From: an uncultured Methanosarcinales archaeon | GTDB taxonomy: Archaea; Nanobdellota; Nanobdellia; Woesearchaeales; JAGWAF01 | Direction of reading: 5' to 3' | DNA: 64,000 bases | Assembly (NCBI GenBank): GCA_964414985.1 | Contig: CAYPXA010000007.1 | Coordinates: 12,233 to 76,232, forward strand | In this document: positions 2,473 through 54,309 of the stretch, in pieces | Layout: the number at the start of each line of letters is the position of its first letter | How positions within the stretch are numbered: the stretch's first letter is position 1 | Notes under the pieces: model-generated | What the model saw: the letters and a program-made list of their open reading frames with translations, nothing else | What the model was told of the DNA's origin: nothing | Database searches by the model: none | Position numbers and translations under genes: made by a program

Positions 2473-3045
2473 TCATACCCAGTATGTCAGAAGGGTGTTT
2501 ATGCCGACGATATTCTCCTTTGCCTGCAGCTCCCTGAATTCAGGCTCAAGAGTGATGTATGCCAGCTTGCTTGAGTACTTCTTTGAAATGGGTATTCCCT
2601 TCTCGACAAGGCTTGTCATGTATGAAGCAACAAGGCTTTCAGTGTAGCCAACCCTTCGTGCAACATCCTTGTAGGTTGTGTACTTGTTGTGCTCTGTAAG
2701 CACGTAAACCGCATAAAAGACCTCCTTTTCCTTTGCAGTAAGCGCCTTTATGCTGTATGCCTTTTTTTCAGCTGAAACACCGCTCTGCTGCTGGAGAATA
2801 AGCGCAAGCTTCTCGATTTTCTCATTCAGCTTGTCAATTTTGCTGTCCAGCTCGCACAAATACTCGAAATTTGACTGGATTTCGTTAGTGTTCTCGTTTA
2901 TGGCCTCAAGATGGTCCTCAAACTGCTCCTTGATCTGCTCAAAGGACTCTGAAACCTGCTCCTTTACGAGCTCAAGCTCACCCTGCTGCTTTTTGGCAAA
3001 AATGCCTACCTGTCCGTCGTTAATGTCACTTCTAATCCCAAACAC
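2473..3045 (-). CDS. coiled-coil protein with C-terminal winged-helix DNA-binding domain
   Basis: N-terminal heptad-rich region (LELVKEQVSESFEQIKEQFEDHLEAINENTNE), C-terminal HTH-like segment (YKDVARRVGYTESLVASYMTSLVEKG). Paralogous in layout to 3124..3867. Confidence 0.45.
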   Translation of the reverse strand: MFGIRSDINDGQVGIFAKKQQGELELVKEQVSESFEQIKEQFEDHLEAINENTNEIQSNFEYLCELDSKIDKLNEKIEKLALILQQQSGVSAEKKAYSIKALTAKEKEVFYAVYVLTEHNKYTTYKDVARRVGYTESLVASYMTSLVEKGIPISKKYSSKLAYITLEPEFRELQAKENIVGINTLLTYWV

Positions 3046-25140: not shown

Positions 25141-25214
25141 GGGGCTGTAGTCTAACTTGGTATGATTCCAGGTTCGGGACCTGGAGGTTCGGAGTTCAAA
25201 TCTCCGCAGCCCCA
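25141..25214 (+). tRNA. tRNA-Pro (anticodon CGG)
   Basis: Acceptor GGGGCTG/CAGCCCC (7 bp) with discriminator A. Anticodon arm CCAGG-TTCGGGA-CCTGG has U33, CGG at 34-36 and G37. T arm CGGAG-TTCAAAT-CTCCG. No encoded CCA. Confidence 0.65.
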
Positions 25215-35610: not shown

Positions 35611-35729
35611 GGGGCTATGGGGTAGCTTGGCTTATCCTTTCTGGTTTGGGACCAGAAGACCCCGGTTCAAACCCGGCAGCCTTATTTGCAAAAATGAATA
35701 GGACTCTGGTGAAAGTCCGGGTAGCCCCA
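35611..35729 (+). tRNA. tRNA-Pro(UGG)-like gene with a roughly 44-nt insertion in the T-arm (putative non-canonical intron)
   Basis: Acceptor GGGGCTA (35611-17) pairs with TAGCCCC (35722-28), discriminator A. Anticodon arm TCTGG-TTTGGGA-CCAGA has U33, UGG and G37. T-stem half CCCGG and loop TTCAAAC (35661-72). The complementary CCGGG follows only at 35717-21, after an intervening 44 nt (35673..35716). Confidence 0.45.
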
Positions 35730-52603: not shown

Positions 52604-53635
52604 ATGCTTCCAGAAGAACAGATAAAACAGATTCAAGATGAAATCAGGCACTGCAAAAAGCCAGTCTTTTTCTTTCACGATGACCCTGACGGGCTTTGCT
52701 CTTTCCTTCTGATGTACAGGCTGATTGGCGAGGGAAAAGGCATAGTTGTCAAGACAAAGCCGAACATAGGCACAATGTTTGCCAGAACAGTAAAGGAATA
52801 CGGCGCAGACAAGGTATTTGTCCTGGACATTGCCATGGTCGAGCAGGATTTCATAGACGAAGTTAAAATTCCTGTAGTCTGGATAGACCACCATGGGCCC
52901 TACCAGCGCGAAAGGGTGAAATACTTCAATTCAAGGCTTCAGGGAGAAAACATACCTCCTTCAGAAGTCTGCTATCATGTTTCTGAAAAAGACCTGTGGA
53001 TTGCAATGGCAGGCTGCATAGGAGACTGGTACATCCCGACTTTCAAGGACAAGTTCTGCGAGCAGTACCCTGACCTGATGGGCAAAGAGGTAACAAAACC
53101 TGAAGACGCGCTTTTCAAGACAAAATTGGGAGAGCTTGTCAAGATAATGTCCTTCAACCTGAAAGGCACAACGCAGGAGGTCATGAAGTCTGCAAAAATA
53201 TTCACAAGGATTGAGACTCCTTATGAAATCCTGAACCAGACAACATCGAGAGGGGCGTTCATCTACAAGAAATATGAGAGAGTCAAGCAGGAGTATGACA
53301 GCCTGCTGAAGAGGGCTGCAGAAAAGAAGACAAAGGACAAAATCCTCCTTTATACTTATCATCAGGATGTTTTAAGCCTTACAAAAGAGCTATCAAACGA
53401 GCTACTGTTCATGTTTCCAAACAAGATAATAGTCATTGGAAGGGAAAAGTCAGGAGAGATGAAGTGCAGCATAAGGTCAGGCCCAAAAGTAATGCTCAAC
53501 CAGGTTCTTGAGAAGGCGCTTGAAGGAATAAGCGGGTATGGCGGAGGCCATGAGCATGCCTGCGGAGCTGTTATCAAAACTGAAGACTTTGAAAAGTTCC
53601 TTGAGAACATGCGAAAGTTCCTGAAAAAGCAGTGA
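52604..53635 (+). CDS. DHH/DHHA1 phosphoesterase (NrnA-like nanoRNase/pAp phosphatase)
   Basis: FFFHDDPDGLCS (motif I/II), WIDHHGP (DHH) and GGGHEHACGA (GGGH of DHHA1). Confidence 0.7.
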   Translation: MLPEEQIKQIQDEIRHCKKPVFFFHDDPDGLCSFLLMYRLIGEGKGIVVKTKPNIGTMFARTVKEYGADKVFVLDIAMVEQDFIDEVKIPVVWIDHHGPYQRERVKYFNSRLQGENIPPSEVCYHVSEKDLWIAMAGCIGDWYIPTFKDKFCEQYPDLMGKEVTKPEDALFKTKLGELVKIMSFNLKGTTQEVMKSAKIFTRIETPYEILNQTTSRGAFIYKKYERVKQEYDSLLKRAAEKKTKDKILLYTYHQDVLSLTKELSNELLFMFPNKIIVIGREKSGEMKCSIRSGPKVMLNQVLEKALEGISGYGGGHEHACGAVIKTEDFEKFLENMRKFLKKQ

Positions 53636-53643
53636 TTTCTTGA

Positions 53644-53661
53644 ATAGTCTAATGGCTATGA
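53644..53661 (+). repeat. 18-nt duplicate of the 5' part of the downstream tRNA-like gene
   Basis: atagtctaatggctatga is identical to 53816..53833. Confidence 0.6.
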
Positions 53662-53809
53662 AATTAACAGGTTTTTCAAAGAAATCCGGCCGTCAAACAT
53701 GAAGCACAAAAAGAAGTATTGGCACTATTTGAAGCATAAAATCGTGCCTCTTACCCAAGAACTTCTTAAGCGTTAGGTTTATATATAACATGGTGATTCA
53801 TCAGTTTAC

Positions 53810-53948
53810 GCGCTGATAGTCTAATGGCTATGAGTTCTTGATGTTGGCAGTTCAATATCAGAGCTAGCAAATACCGGCCTTCCATAATGGAAAGGAAGCT
53901 AACCATTGACGAGAGCCGATGGTCCGGGTTCGAATCCCGGTCAGCGCA
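53810..53948 (+). tRNA. unusually long (139-nt) tRNA gene with one or more introns; anticodon uncertain (UCC-Gly fold preferred, GUU-Asn possible)
   Basis: Acceptor GCGCTGA (53810-16) with TCAGCGC+A (53941-48). Canonical T arm CCGGG-TTCGAAT-CCCGG. Candidate anticodon arm CCGGC-CTTCCAT... with the intron TAATGGAAAGGAAG complementary to the exon CCTTCCA (BHB-like). About 38 extra nt lie between the D region and the anticodon stem. Confidence 0.4.
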
Positions 53949-53967
53949 TTTAATATTCTAAACCAAA

Positions 53968-54309
53968 ATGGACAAGCCAAAAGTATACCTGTTTACGTCT
54001 GCTGGATGCCCGCACTGCCCTCCTGCAAAGAGGTTCATAGCTGAATTTATGCAGGAGAGGAATGATTTTGAACTAATCCATTTGGTTTCAGGGACTTATG
54101 CAGCTTCACAAAAGGCAAAAGAGTTTGATGTCATTTCAGTCCCAACATTTATCATACAGGGCCCTGCAATAGACTACAATATAGGCGCAAAAGGCACTCC
54201 ATCCAAGGAAGCGATGAACAAGTATCTGGACATGGCTTTGGGCACATACAAGGAAAAGGAGAAAAAGCCAAGAGAGTTCGGGATTGGCAGGTTCAAAATT
54301 AAGTTCTAA
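53968..54309 (+). CDS. thioredoxin/glutaredoxin-fold protein
   Basis: Active site CPHC (FTSAGCPHCPPAK); 113 aa. Confidence 0.65.
   Translation: MDKPKVYLFTSAGCPHCPPAKRFIAEFMQERNDFELIHLVSGTYAASQKAKEFDVISVPTFIIQGPAIDYNIGAKGTPSKEAMNKYLDMALGTYKEKEKKPREFGIGRFKIKF

What the first reader, a model, noticed from the sequence alone, without database searches (positions are those of the whole stretch)
53644..53948. 139-nt tRNA-like gene with at least two insertions and an upstream 18-nt duplicate of its 5' region
Acceptor ends GCGCTGA/TCAGCGC+A and a textbook T arm (CCGGG-TTCGAAT-CCCGG) define a tRNA, but about 65 extra nucleotides are present. One plausible fold gives anticodon UCC (Gly) with a 29-nt intron whose AATGGAAAGGAAG segment is complementary to the 5' exon CCTTCCA (BHB-like), plus a second roughly 38-nt insertion between the D region and the anticodon stem. 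An alternative fold gives GUU (Asn). The segment GCGCTGATA...TATCAGAGC (53810-53864) can also form a 9-bp helix, reminiscent of the leader pairing of split tRNA halves. The 18-nt stretch atagtctaatggctatga occurs again 172 bp upstream (53644-53661); this could be an integration footprint (att-like duplication) or a decayed tRNA fragment.
Basis: seen in the sequence. Interest (0 to 1): 0.55.

Follow-up and report, generated by a model that had tools for sequence, protein, structure and literature searches.

The report
Two-intron tRNA-Gly with homing-endonuclease relic
This is a real archaeal glycine tRNA gene interrupted by two spliceable introns, and the upstream 18-base duplicate is the orphaned front end of the original gene, left when a selfish homing-endonuclease cassette (intact in relatives, almost wholly deleted here) inserted into it; this points to a testable route by which archaeal tRNA genes gain introns.

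Summary
Window 53810-53948 (+) is a tRNA-Gly(UCC) gene with two bulge-helix-bulge (BHB) introns: 38 nt in the D arm (position 23/24) and 29 nt at the canonical 37/38. Splicing in silico gives a 72-nt tRNA that matches intron-less orthologues next to the same DHH gene in related Woesearchaeota-like contigs, except for one compensatory pair. The 18-mer is exactly repeated (53644-53661 and 53816-53833) and is not chance. The DNA between the copies holds the last 38 codons and stop of a LAGLIDADG homing endonuclease gene (HEG), followed by the tRNA's TATA box. Ten distinct related loci have an intact ~290-aa HEG at this position. At least eight of them show the layout 5' tRNA-Gly fragment, HEG, promoter, tRNA-Gly(UCC), and eight of the ten tRNAs carry a D-arm BHB intron. 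Three HEG-free orthologous loci have neither fragment nor D-arm intron. The best reading is a decayed HEG cassette that inserted into the tRNA gene and brought a replacement 5' exon, promoter and D-arm intron. That the intron shields the gene from the HEG is inference. The Asn, split-tRNA and integrase-att readings are rejected. The closest precedent is Caldiarchaeum tRNA-Thr (Sugahara 2012). It is a new variant of a known kind.

The parts
52604..53635 (+). DHH/DHHA1 phosphoesterase gene. It is the conserved upstream neighbour of tRNA-Gly(UCC) in related genomes and serves as the synteny anchor.
   Evidence: Pfam DHHA1 52 bits and DHH 30 bits. Orthologues of 55-73% identity lie directly upstream of tRNA-Gly(UCC) in L019, L020 and L038, and DHH C-terminal coding sequence is also seen there in L018 and L039.
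53644..53661 (+). Orphaned 5' exon fragment of tRNA-Gly(UCC), tRNA positions 7-24. It starts 8 nt after the DHH stop codon and lacks positions 1-6 and a promoter.
   Evidence: It is an exact 18-nt copy of 53816-53833. Equivalent fragments sit at the same place upstream of the HEG in L019, L025, L026, L027, L029, L031, L035 and L039, with a degenerate one in L036. HEG-free loci have the promoter and intact tRNA at this place instead.
53660..53776 (+). Remnant of a LAGLIDADG homing endonuclease gene: the last 38 codons (EINRFFKEIRPSNMKHKKKYWHYLKHKIVPLTQELLKR) plus the TAG stop at 53774-53776. About 0.8 kb (HEG promoter and codons 1 to ~252) has been deleted.
   Evidence: tblastn of family members against the window gives 60-74% identity over 38 aa, E about 1e-12. 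The C-termini align. The DNA is collinear with the intact locus L039 from HEG codon ~252 onward, and the deletion junction shows GAAA microhomology.
53778..53787 (+). Archaeal-type TATA box (TTTATATATA), centred about 28 nt upstream of tRNA position 1. It directly follows the HEG stop codon.
   Evidence: Read from the sequence. The same CGTTAG + (a/g)tttatata arrangement is conserved in L019, L025, L026, L031 and L039, with a variant CGTTAA + ctttataaaa in L027.
53810..53832 (+). tRNA-Gly(UCC) exon 1 (tRNA positions 1-23).
   Evidence: Rfam tRNA hit, BHB scan, and match to intron-less L020.
53833..53870 (+). Intron 1, 38 nt, in the D arm at position 23/24. It forms a strict hBHBh' motif: central helix GCUA/UAGC, bulges UG|A and AA|A, and inner helix GUUCU/AGAGC continuing into an 8-bp hairpin.
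   Evidence: It is the only D-arm candidate with a 4/4 central helix, a 5-bp inner helix h' and a 2-bp outer helix h. Homologous introns occupy the same position in L026, L027, L029, L031, L032 and L039. Central helix and h' are 100% paired with compensatory changes. The intron is absent from HEG-free orthologues.
53871..53884 (+). tRNA-Gly(UCC) exon 2 (positions 24-37, including anticodon UCC).
   Evidence: In-silico splicing gives ARAGORN tRNA-Gly(tcc). The sequence is identical to L020 and L039.
53885..53913 (+). Intron 2, 29 nt, at the canonical position 37/38. The BHB central helix CUUC/GACG has a U.C mismatch at U33; the bulges are CA|U and AG|A; the inner helix h' is AAUGG/CCAUU.
   Evidence: BHB scan. 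The homologous intron in L039 has the same 3' end (CATTGA[C/T]GA[G/A]) and, by my own reading, a U33.U mismatch at the same position. Canonical introns are also present in L018, L026 and L027.
53914..53948 (+). tRNA-Gly(UCC) exon 3 (positions 38-73, discriminator A73; no encoded CCA).
   Evidence: Rfam alignment. The 3' 25 nt are identical to those of tRNA-Gly genes of Methanospirillum and Hermodarchaeota.
53968..54309 (+). Thioredoxin-like ORF. It marks the downstream boundary; no 3' tRNA repeat lies between it and the tRNA.
   Evidence: Weak Pfam Thioredoxin_3 hit. There is no second copy of CCCGGTCAGCGCA in the window.

Best explanation
The locus is the tRNA-Gly(UCC) gene of a Woesearchaeota-like (DPANN) archaeon. 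It is transcribed from its own TATA box as a 139-nt precursor. The archaeal splicing endonuclease would remove two BHB introns (38 nt at 23/24 in the D arm, 29 nt at 37/38) to give a 72-nt tRNA. The gene is the right-hand end of a decayed mobile cassette. In relatives the cassette is HEG promoter, a ~290-aa HTH + double-motif LAGLIDADG homing endonuclease, tRNA promoter, replacement exon 1 and D-arm intron. It sits inside the resident tRNA-Gly gene at about position 24/25. The resident 5' exon is left stranded upstream; this is the 18-mer at 53644-53661. In the window a ~0.8-kb deletion between GAAA microhomologies removed the HEG promoter and codons 1 to ~252. The orphan exon also lost its promoter and nucleotides 1-6. 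Shown here: the gene structure, the splice junctions, the HEG remnant, the recurrent architecture, and the absence of fragment and D-arm intron in HEG-free orthologous loci. Inferred: (i) the endonuclease cuts intron-less tRNA-Gly(UCC) DNA in the D-arm/anticodon-stem region and spreads by double-strand-break repair, with the stranded 5' fragment and exons 2-3 acting as homology arms; (ii) the D-arm intron interrupts the recognition site, so the rebuilt gene is immune while the RNA stays functional because the intron is spliced. That would be an archaeal BHB version of collaborative homing.
For: Gene and splicing: tRNA model hit of 40.2 bits. Strict BHB for intron 1 and a near-strict BHB for intron 2. 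The spliced product is called tRNA-Gly(tcc) by ARAGORN; it equals the intron-less L020 and spliced L039 tRNAs except for a compensatory U5-A68 versus C5-G68 pair. Hermodarchaeota tRNA-Gly genes show the same UCU...UGAU D stem with a U13.U22 mismatch. BHB helices are 100% paired in 8 loci, with double changes at all 11 pairs and 0 of 500 shuffles reaching the observed value. Relic: the 38-aa C-terminal match to the LAGLIDADG family has E about 1e-12, and the window is collinear at DNA level with the intact locus L039. Recurrence: ten distinct loci (L019, L025, L026, L027, L029, L031, L032, L035, L036, L039) have the HEG immediately upstream of tRNA-Gly(UCC) on the same strand; clear 5' fragments precede the HEG in eight of them, a degenerate one in L036 and none in L032. 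A D-arm intron is present in 9 of 11 HEG or relic loci and in 0 of 3 HEG-free orthologous loci (L018, L020, L038); a hand-calculated Fisher test gives p about 0.03. HEG-free loci carry the promoter and tRNA exactly where the window has the orphan fragment. Enzyme: LAGLIDADG_3 Pfam hits of 39-52 bits against a cut-off of 22.5; both catalytic motifs (GDG, DTDG) are invariant in 26 diverse members. Mobility: HEG identities of 60-66% exceed those of the adjacent DHH gene (35-55%), and the rankings are incongruent: L019 versus L035 is 53% for DHH but 39% for HEG.
Against: No cleavage specificity is known for this endonuclease family; the target site and the immunity role of the intron are inference. 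Two HEG-bearing loci (L035, L036; HEG only 40-41% identical) have intron-less tRNA-Gly genes, which needs the extra assumption that their divergent D arms are resistant or that those enzymes have another specificity. The constant position next to one tRNA gene could also reflect old vertical inheritance or a host function of an HTH-LAGLIDADG protein. Whether the stranded fragment is the resident exon or travels with the cassette is not settled: in L025, L027 and L029 the fragment resembles the A7-U8-A9 type rather than the local G7-U8-G9 exon. The perfect 18/18 identity in the window, against 3 differences in L039, needs gene conversion or a recent event. Intron 2 has an imperfect central helix. 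No splicing endonuclease gene was looked for in the window, and no RNA data are available. The sample of loci is small and was selected through the HEG.
Confidence: 0.78

Rival explanations
1. The 18-mer pair is an att core duplication left by a site-specific integrase (SSV- or pNOB8-type) of a plasmid or virus that integrated into the tRNA gene. The HEG is mere cargo, and the extra intron came in with attP, as in the Sugahara 2012 model.
For: Direct repeats of a tRNA 5' part flank an inserted segment whose ORF abuts the tRNA on the same strand. That is the layout described for Caldiarchaeum tRNA-Thr (PMC3293823). tRNA genes are classical archaeal att sites.
Against: In the 10 distinct loci with an intact HEG the segment between the fragment and the tRNA is only about 1.0-1.1 kb. 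Its only gene is the LAGLIDADG ORF. No integrase or recombinase Pfam family appears among the neighbours. The flanking genes are ordinary housekeeping genes with conserved synteny (DHH, His_Phos, TspO, Nre).
Confidence: 0.08
2. The HTH-LAGLIDADG protein is a domesticated, vertically inherited host factor (WhiA-like DNA binder or regulator of the tRNA-Gly locus). The fragment and intron are old neutral scars, and the window simply lost a dispensable gene.
For: The position next to tRNA-Gly(UCC) is constant across proteins down to 40% identity. An N-terminal HTH is present, and there are weak LAGLIDADG_WhiA hits. The HEG C-terminus overlaps the tRNA promoter.
Against: The distribution among close relatives is patchy: absent in L018, L020 and L038, and decayed in the window. 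Both catalytic Asp motifs are invariant, unlike WhiA. HEG and DHH divergence are incongruent. The association with a stranded exon and an intron at the junction is typical of an insertion event.
Confidence: 0.1
3. The upstream 18-mer is a functional alternative or trans-spliced 5' tRNA half (split-tRNA-like), or the whole 53644-53870 stretch is one giant intron.
For: The fragment ends at the intron-1 boundary and could form the same central helix (GCUA/UAGC) with the intron's 3' end. Split and tri-split tRNA-Gly genes are known in Caldivirga (cited in PMC10714607).
Against: The fragment lacks positions 1-6, having TTCTTG instead of GCGCTG, so it cannot pair with TCAGCGC. It starts 8 nt after the DHH stop codon, with no TATA box in between. 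The sequence after it (AAUU...) cannot form the inner helix h'. A complete, promoter-equipped gene lies 150 nt downstream.
Confidence: 0.02
4. The repeat is a chance match of a common D-arm sequence, or a fragment of some other tRNA.
For: The same 18-mer occurs in unrelated tRNAs: phage tRNA-Glu in L011, L012 and L021, and a tRNA-Ala in L022. It also occurs in apparently unrelated (possibly coding) DNA in metagenomes.
Against: None of 100 shuffles gave two copies. Equivalent fragments at the equivalent place in nine related loci, and the HEG remnant between the copies, tie the repeat to tRNA-Gly(UCC).
Confidence: 0.01

Closest known systems
Caldiarchaeum subterraneum tRNA-Thr(GGU) disruption locus (Sugahara et al. 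2012, PLoS One, PMC3293823)
   Same: A 5' tRNA fragment (positions 1-27) lies upstream of a complete tRNA that has gained an extra BHB intron at 24/25. The 1.87-kb insert between them carries an 813-bp ORF directly next to the tRNA on the same strand. Intron-less and insert-less alleles exist in the population.
   Different: There the ORF was called a putative recombinase, and the event was modelled as pNOB8-type attP x attB integration. Here the ORF is a LAGLIDADG homing endonuclease, the cassette recurs in many Woesearchaeota-like genomes and always at tRNA-Gly(UCC), and in the window it has decayed to a 38-codon stub. Whether the Caldiarchaeum ORF is also LAGLIDADG could not be tested, because its sequence is not held.
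Collaborative homing of a free-standing homing endonuclease with an ORF-less intron (cyanophage S-PM2 psbA / F-CphI; T4 mobE / I-TevIII; see PMC6083498 and PMC2790892; details from my own knowledge)
   Same: The endonuclease gene lies beside, not inside, an intron-containing gene. Intron-less alleles are the presumed targets. The intron is proposed to interrupt the recognition site, so intron and HEG are inherited together.
   Different: Those cases involve self-splicing group I introns in phage protein genes. Here the intron is a protein-spliced BHB intron in an archaeal tRNA gene. The cassette also carries a duplicate 5' exon with its own promoter and leaves the resident exon stranded. Cleavage has not been demonstrated here.
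Archaeal rRNA BHB introns encoding LAGLIDADG homing endonucleases (I-DmoI, I-PorI type; from my own knowledge; background in PMC4496867 and PMC6125680)
   Same: A LAGLIDADG enzyme is combined with a BHB intron in a stable-RNA gene of an archaeon, with presumed homing.
   Different: In those cases the ORF is inside the intron. Here the short introns (24-41 nt) have no ORF, and the HEG sits upstream of the gene between a stranded exon fragment and the rebuilt gene.
Multi-intron tRNAs with non-canonical BHB introns (Thermoproteales, ARMAN and others; PMC4090602, PMC3239211, PMC12397907)
   Same: Two introns, one at 37/38 and one in the D arm, each with a BHB motif. Standard tRNA finders miss the gene.
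   Different: Nothing differs for the tRNA itself: it is an ordinary member of this class. The linked HEG relic is the added feature.

Membership tests
Archaeal intron-containing tRNA (BHB-spliced) | Removing the proposed introns yields a canonical cloverleaf tRNA. | tested here: met
   The spliced 72-mer is called tRNA-Gly(tcc) by ARAGORN. It equals the intron-less L020 tRNA (67 bits) except for one compensatory pair.
Archaeal intron-containing tRNA (BHB-spliced) | A bulge-helix-bulge motif (two 3-nt bulges, 4-bp helix) lies at each exon-intron boundary in the right register. | tested here: met
   Intron 1 has a 4/4 central helix, inner helix h' of 5 bp and outer helix h of 2 bp. Intron 2 has a 3/4 central helix (U33.C), h' of 5 bp and h of 4 bp. 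Eight loci show covariation.
Archaeal intron-containing tRNA (BHB-spliced) | The host encodes a splicing endonuclease and ligase able to process non-canonical positions; the RNA is actually spliced. | not tested
   No EndA gene was searched for in the 64-kb window, and no RNA data are available. The archaeal host is inferred from the TATA promoter and from homologues named Candidatus Woesearchaeota.
tRNA-Gly identity | Anticodon UCC in a 7-nt loop with U33 and purine 37; discriminator A73; G1-C72, C2-G71 and G3-C70 (archaeal Gly identity set, from my own knowledge). | tested here: met
   The loop is CUUCCAA, position 73 is A and the acceptor starts GCG. The 3' 25 nt are identical to tRNA-Gly genes of other archaea.
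LAGLIDADG homing endonuclease gene | Sequence homology to the LAGLIDADG family. | tested here: met
   The window stub at 53660-53773 matches family C-termini at 60-74% identity, E about 1e-12. Full-length relatives hit PF14528 at 39-52 bits.
LAGLIDADG homing endonuclease gene | An intact ORF with two LAGLIDADG motifs and catalytic acidic residues. | tested here: not met
   In the window only the last 38 codons remain, so it is a pseudogene stub. In relatives both motifs are invariant.
LAGLIDADG homing endonuclease gene | Site-specific cleavage of the HEG-less, intron-less allele, followed by homing. | not testable with these tools
   This needs a biochemical assay. Indirect support comes from the patchy distribution and the HEG/DHH incongruence.
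Integrase-mediated integration at a tRNA att site | A tyrosine or serine recombinase gene within the element bounded by the repeats. | tested here: not met
   No such gene lies between or beside the repeats in the 10 related loci with an intact HEG (Pfam lists). The window interval is 154 nt.
Integrase-mediated integration at a tRNA att site | Direct repeats of part of the tRNA flank the insert. | tested here: met
   An 18-nt exact repeat.
Split / trans-spliced tRNA half | The 5' half has a complete acceptor strand, its own promoter and a leader complementary to the partner. | tested here: not met
   Positions 1-6 are replaced by TTCTTG. The fragment starts 8 nt after a stop codon with no TATA box. 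No complementary leader is present.
Collaborative homing (free-standing HEG + protective intron) | The HEG is adjacent to an intron-containing gene, and intron-less alleles occur where the HEG is absent. | tested here: met
   Nine of 11 HEG or relic loci have the D-arm intron. None of the 3 HEG-free orthologous loci has it.
Collaborative homing (free-standing HEG + protective intron) | The intron insertion site lies inside the endonuclease recognition site and blocks cleavage. | not testable with these tools
   Positional evidence only: the introns at 20/21 or 23/24 and the fragment end at 24/25 fall within a few nucleotides of each other.

The most novel reading that the evidence does not exclude
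A family of free-standing HTH-LAGLIDADG homing endonucleases in Woesearchaeota-like archaea specifically attacks the intron-less tRNA-Gly(UCC) gene. It spreads as a compact cassette that carries a replacement promoter, a replacement 5' exon and a short BHB intron that makes the rebuilt gene uncuttable. This would be a natural cleave-and-rescue or collaborative-homing drive. It would also be a direct, repeatable mechanism for the gain of non-canonical introns, and of stranded tRNA fragments, in archaeal tRNA genes. The Caldiarchaeum tRNA-Thr case may be the same phenomenon.
Probability: 0.5. Interest if true: 0.8.

Novelty: new variant of a known kind. Interest (0 to 1): 0.66.

Why it matters
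How archaeal tRNA genes acquire introns at non-canonical positions, and how tRNA fragments and split genes arise, is still open. Reviews state that the mechanism of acquisition is unknown (PMC3218864, PMC4390854). The one population-level example (PMC3293823) invoked an unidentified recombinase.

Here a defined enzyme family, with invariant catalytic motifs, is tied to one tRNA gene, to a stranded 5' exon and to a D-arm BHB intron. The link holds in eleven loci, and three HEG-free orthologous loci serve as the 'before' state. That makes the question experimentally testable: synthesise the endonuclease and test whether it cuts the intron-less gene but not the intron-containing one.

It also shows that a tRNA gene which standard finders miss can be recovered by comparison with orthologues, and it explains short tRNA-like duplicates near such genes. 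For the window itself the practical result is a corrected annotation: one functional two-intron tRNA-Gly(UCC), one HEG pseudogene stub and one orphan exon fragment.

Tried and rejected
- **Asn(GUU) fold.** The GUU lies in the loop of the intron-1 hairpin. No cloverleaf results, and orthologues show Gly(UCC).
- **ARAGORN.** The default run finds nothing in the precursor. With -i it returns a spurious 'tRNA-Pyl(cta)' with a 53-nt intron; rejected.
- **Sub-threshold Rfam hits** in 53600-54000 (snoR17, TYMV_upPK, mascRNA, ROSE_2) all have E > 1; chance.
- **Generic BHB scan.** It gives many chance candidates. Only 23/61 and 75/104 give a product that matches orthologues.
- **Exon-3 25-mer against GTDB genomes**. 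It found only Methanospirillum and Hermodarchaeota tRNA-Gly(GCC). This was useful for identity and the D-stem pattern, but these are not relatives.
- **18-mer against viral contigs**. Only a phage tRNA-Glu; no attP-like element.
- **18-mer against metagenomes**. Of 12 hits, 3 were informative (L018, L019, L020). The rest were other tRNAs or apparently unrelated hits.
- **tblastn alignments running on into the DHH gene**. They add only a few bits and are in the same frame by coincidence; judged spurious.
- **PDB sequence search of the HEG**. Only intein endonuclease domains of V-ATPase subunits (E 1e-7); no close characterised enzyme.
- **11-mer TGAtTTCTTGA / TGAgTTCTTGA** flanking the two copies. 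A permuted or circular origin was considered. No mechanism or parallel was found in other loci. The left copy is largely the DHH stop codon plus the start of the native spacer (TTTC, as in L038); treated as probable coincidence.
- **Caldiarchaeum ORF 'b'.** Its sequence is not in the held supplements.
- **P0122 locus** (closest DHH relative, 74%). No DNA could be fetched.
Full report
**1. Observation**

The Rfam tRNA covariance model matches window 53810-53948 (+) end to end at 40.2 bits against a gathering score of 29. It places two large insertions, one in the D region and one in the anticodon loop. ARAGORN does not call the gene.

The 18-mer ATAGTCTAATGGCTATGA occurs exactly twice, at 53644-53661 and 53816-53833. 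None of 100 shuffles produced two matches, even with three mismatches allowed. An independent Logan assembly (L001) is identical over the 441 nt compared, window 53560-54000.

**2. The tRNA**

I scanned the 139-nt precursor for bulge-helix-bulge (BHB) geometry: two 3-nt bulges on opposite strands, separated by 4 bp and cut after the second bulge nucleotide.

- **Intron 1.** The D-region candidate with a perfect 4-bp central helix and helices on both sides cuts after precursor positions 23 and 61. The central helix is GCUA/UAGC, the bulges are UG|A and AA|A, and the inner helix is GUUCU/AGAGC. This is window 53833-53870, 38 nt, tRNA position 23/24.
- **Intron 2.** At the canonical site, cuts after positions 75 and 104 give intron 2 (53885-53913, 29 nt). 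The central helix is CUUC/GACG with one U.C mismatch, the bulges are CA|U and AG|A, and the inner helix is AAUGG/CCAUU.
- **Spliced product.** Joining the exons gives GCGCUGAUAGUCUAAUGGCUAUGAUACCGGCCUUCCAAGCCGAUGGUCCGGGUUCGAAUCCCGGUCAGCGCA, 72 nt. ARAGORN calls this tRNA-Gly(tcc).

Independent confirmation came from public data. A metagenome contig (L020) carries an intron-less tRNA-Gly(UCC) scoring 67 bits. It is identical to the predicted spliced product except for C5-G68 in place of U5-A68, a compensatory pair. It lies directly downstream of a DHH gene 66% identical to the window's. L018 has the same tRNA with only a canonical intron.

The unusual D stem (GUCU/UGAU, with a U13.U22 mismatch) recurs in Hermodarchaeota tRNA-Gly genes that share the window's 3' 25 nt. 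A TATA box, TTTATATATA (53778-53787), is centred about 28 nt upstream of position 1.

The Asn(GUU) alternative and the split-tRNA analogy are not supported.

**3. What lies between the two 18-mers**

A third contig (L019) has a DHH orthologue (55% identity). Three nucleotides after its stop codon comes a tRNA-Gly 5' fragment, GCGCCGATAGTCTAATGGCTATGAT (positions 1-25). An ORF of about 290 aa follows, then a TATA box, then a complete tRNA-Gly(UCC) with a 41-nt D-loop intron.

The ORF belongs to the LAGLIDADG_3 family (PF14528, 39-52 bits, cut-off 22.5). It has an N-terminal helix-turn-helix. Both catalytic motifs (GDG and DTDG) are invariant in 26 diverse members.

The window's spacer translates in frame as EINRFFKEIRPSNMKHKKKYWHYLKHKIVPLTQELLKR*. 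This matches the C-termini of family members at 60-74% identity over 38 residues, with E about 1e-12. So 53660-53776 is the 3' stub of such a homing endonuclease gene (HEG).

**4. Recurrence**

I looked up the genomic context of family members ranging from 71% down to 40% identity. Including L019 (section 3), ten distinct loci (L019, L025, L026, L027=L028, L029=L030, L031, L032-34, L035, L036=L037, L039) have the HEG immediately upstream of tRNA-Gly(UCC) on the same strand.

- **Stranded fragment.** Eight loci show a clear tRNA-Gly 5' fragment just upstream of the HEG or its promoter. L036 has a degenerate one, and none is visible in L032.
- **D-arm intron.** Eight of the ten have one. It is either 'type A' (cut 23/24, GGCUA...CUAGCAA|A, as in the window: L026, L027, L029, L031, L032, L039) or 'type B' (cut 20/21, central helix AUGG/CCAU: L019, L025).
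- **Covariation.** Across the eight introns tested (L039 not included), the central and inner helices are 100% paired. All 11 pairs show double changes, and 0 of 500 shuffles reached the observed score. The caveat is that I extracted the segments in BHB register.
- **Exceptions.** L035 and L036 carry the most divergent HEGs (40-41%). Their tRNA-Gly genes are intron-less and have different D-arm sequences.

**5. The 'before' state**

Three HEG-free orthologous loci are available: L020, L018 and L038. L038 has the same synteny as the window (Nre-TspO-His_Phos-DHH), with DHH 73% identical. In these loci the DHH stop codon is followed by a conserved promoter (ttccaaaatatttataaa). About 24 nt further on comes a tRNA-Gly(UCC) without a D-arm intron and without any fragment.

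The D-arm intron is therefore present in 9 of 11 HEG or relic loci and in 0 of 3 HEG-free loci. A hand-calculated Fisher test gives p about 0.03.

In the window the orphan fragment sits exactly where the native gene should be. After the stop codon comes TTTC, as at the start of the native spacer, followed directly by tRNA position 7. The native promoter and nucleotides 1-6 have therefore been deleted. L019 and L039 have similar promoter deletions, and in L026 the TATA box is mutated.

**6. The intact counterpart**

L039 carries the HEG closest to the window's stub. Its order is DHH C-terminus, 10 nt, fragment ATTAGTCTAATGGTCATGA, HEG promoter, 290-aa HEG, CGTTAG-atttatatata, then a tRNA-Gly(UCC). 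That tRNA has both introns homologous to the window's, and its exons are identical to L020's.

The window aligns collinearly with L039 from HEG codon ~252 to the tRNA's 3' end. At the junction L039 reads ...AGGAAGAAATTGACAGA... inside the HEG and ...CATGAAAAATA... after its fragment, whereas the window reads ...CTATGAAATTAACAGG.... This fits a single ~0.8-kb deletion between GAAA microhomologies. That step is inference from sequence.

**7. Mechanism**

Shown: an insertion into the resident tRNA-Gly(UCC) gene at about position 24/25. It stranded the resident 5' exon and supplied a new promoter, a new exon 1 and a short BHB intron. The only protein gene it carries is a LAGLIDADG endonuclease.

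Inferred: the enzyme cuts the intron-less gene near the insertion point and spreads by double-strand-break repair. The stranded fragment and exons 2-3 would serve as homology arms. The D-arm intron would split the recognition site, so the rebuilt gene is immune while the tRNA still matures through BHB splicing.

Support for mobility:
- The distribution among relatives is patchy.
- HEG identities (60-66% among L019, L025, L026 and L031) exceed those of the adjacent DHH gene (35-55%).
- The rankings are incongruent: L019 versus L035 is 53% for DHH but 39% for HEG.

These are pairwise identities, not trees.

**8. Comparison with known systems**

The tRNA itself is an ordinary member of the multi-intron BHB class (PMC4090602, PMC12397907).

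The locus architecture matches the Caldiarchaeum tRNA-Thr case (PMC3293823): a 5' fragment, a 1.87-kb insert with an 813-bp ORF abutting the tRNA, and a new intron at 24/25. That case was explained by pNOB8-type integration. Here no integrase is present and the ORF is a homing endonuclease.

The proposed logic parallels collaborative homing of free-standing HEGs with ORF-less group I introns in phages. It also recalls LAGLIDADG-bearing BHB introns of archaeal rRNA genes.

Full-text searches found no paper that links a LAGLIDADG HEG to BHB intron gain in an archaeal tRNA gene. The held library is incomplete, so this is absence of evidence only.

**9. Verdict**

The 18-mer is the orphaned resident exon of a decayed homing-endonuclease cassette. 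The window's copy is a relic, but the family it reveals is a new variant of a known kind and offers a testable mechanism for tRNA intron gain.

Noticed in passing
L018 ~169-235; L038 3635-3700; also L026, L027/L028, L029, L035 downstream of the tRNA: The last 10-16 nt of tRNA-Gly(UCC) (for example GGTCGGCGCA or ATCCCGGTCGATGCA) are repeated 47-130 nt downstream of the gene. The inserts in L018 and L038 are homologous and contain a perfect hairpin (GCTGAAC-TT-GTTCAGC). This looks like a second, ORF-less insertion at the 3' end that is independent of the HEG, since it occurs in HEG-free loci. The window has no such repeat.
   Followed up: partly
L032 about 2945-3040 (also L034): This tRNA-Gly(UCC) has, besides the D-arm intron, a ~95-nt insertion inside the T loop (GGTTCGAAT | ... 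| TCCCGG). It may be a third intron. Its BHB was not worked out.
   Followed up: no
L035 1930-2929 (GCA_016215315.1): The HEG reading frame runs into the tRNA: its last codons (HRWRNG*) are encoded by tRNA positions 1-22, and the stop TAG lies in the D loop. This tRNA-Gly is intron-less and has a different D stem (GCGU/GCGU). Upstream of the HEG a decayed tRNA-like stretch keeps both a D-arm piece (ATAGTATAATGGCTAT) and a T-loop piece (GGTTCGAAT).
   Followed up: partly
window 53633-53643 and 53831-53841: An 11-mer, TGAtTTCTTGA, directly precedes the upstream 18-mer. A near-identical TGAgTTCTTGA overlaps the end of the downstream copy, so the arrangement looks circularly permuted. No parallel was seen in other loci. 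The upstream copy includes the DHH stop codon and the start of the native spacer. It is probably coincidence but remains unexplained.
   Followed up: partly
window 53636-53643; L019 1072-1074; L039 ~49-58; L026 2395-2436: The stranded 5' exon has lost its promoter in several loci. It is deleted in the window, L019 and L039, and the TATA box is mutated in L026. In L031 a TATA box lies directly upstream of the fragment, which abuts the HEG start codon. This may reflect silencing or re-use of the orphan promoter.
   Followed up: partly
L025, L027, L029 left fragments versus their own exon 1: The stranded fragments carry A7-U8-A9 (ATAGTCTAATGG), like the L020 and window type of tRNA-Gly. The functional exon 1 in the same loci has G7-U8-G9. 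So the fragment may travel with the cassette rather than being the local resident exon. In the window the two copies are 18/18 identical, against 3 differences in L039, which suggests gene conversion or a recent event.
   Followed up: partly
L006-L009 (Hermodarchaeota): These Asgard tRNA-Gly(GCC) genes share the window tRNA's last 25 nt exactly. Three of the four carry a canonical-position intron of about 30 nt.
   Followed up: no
window 25141-25214 and 35611-35684: Two uninterrupted tRNA-Pro genes (CGG and UGG) are the only other tRNAs detected in the 64 kb.
   Followed up: no
window 53816-53831: ATAG...CUAU within the 18-mer can pair (A7-U, U8-A, A9-U, G10-C). Together with further 5' exon nucleotides this forms the 5' hairpin in the minimum-free-energy fold of the precursor, competing with the cloverleaf D stem and with the BHB. 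The BHB/cloverleaf-compatible structure is 15.6 kcal/mol less stable than the MFE in the nearest-neighbour model.
   Followed up: no
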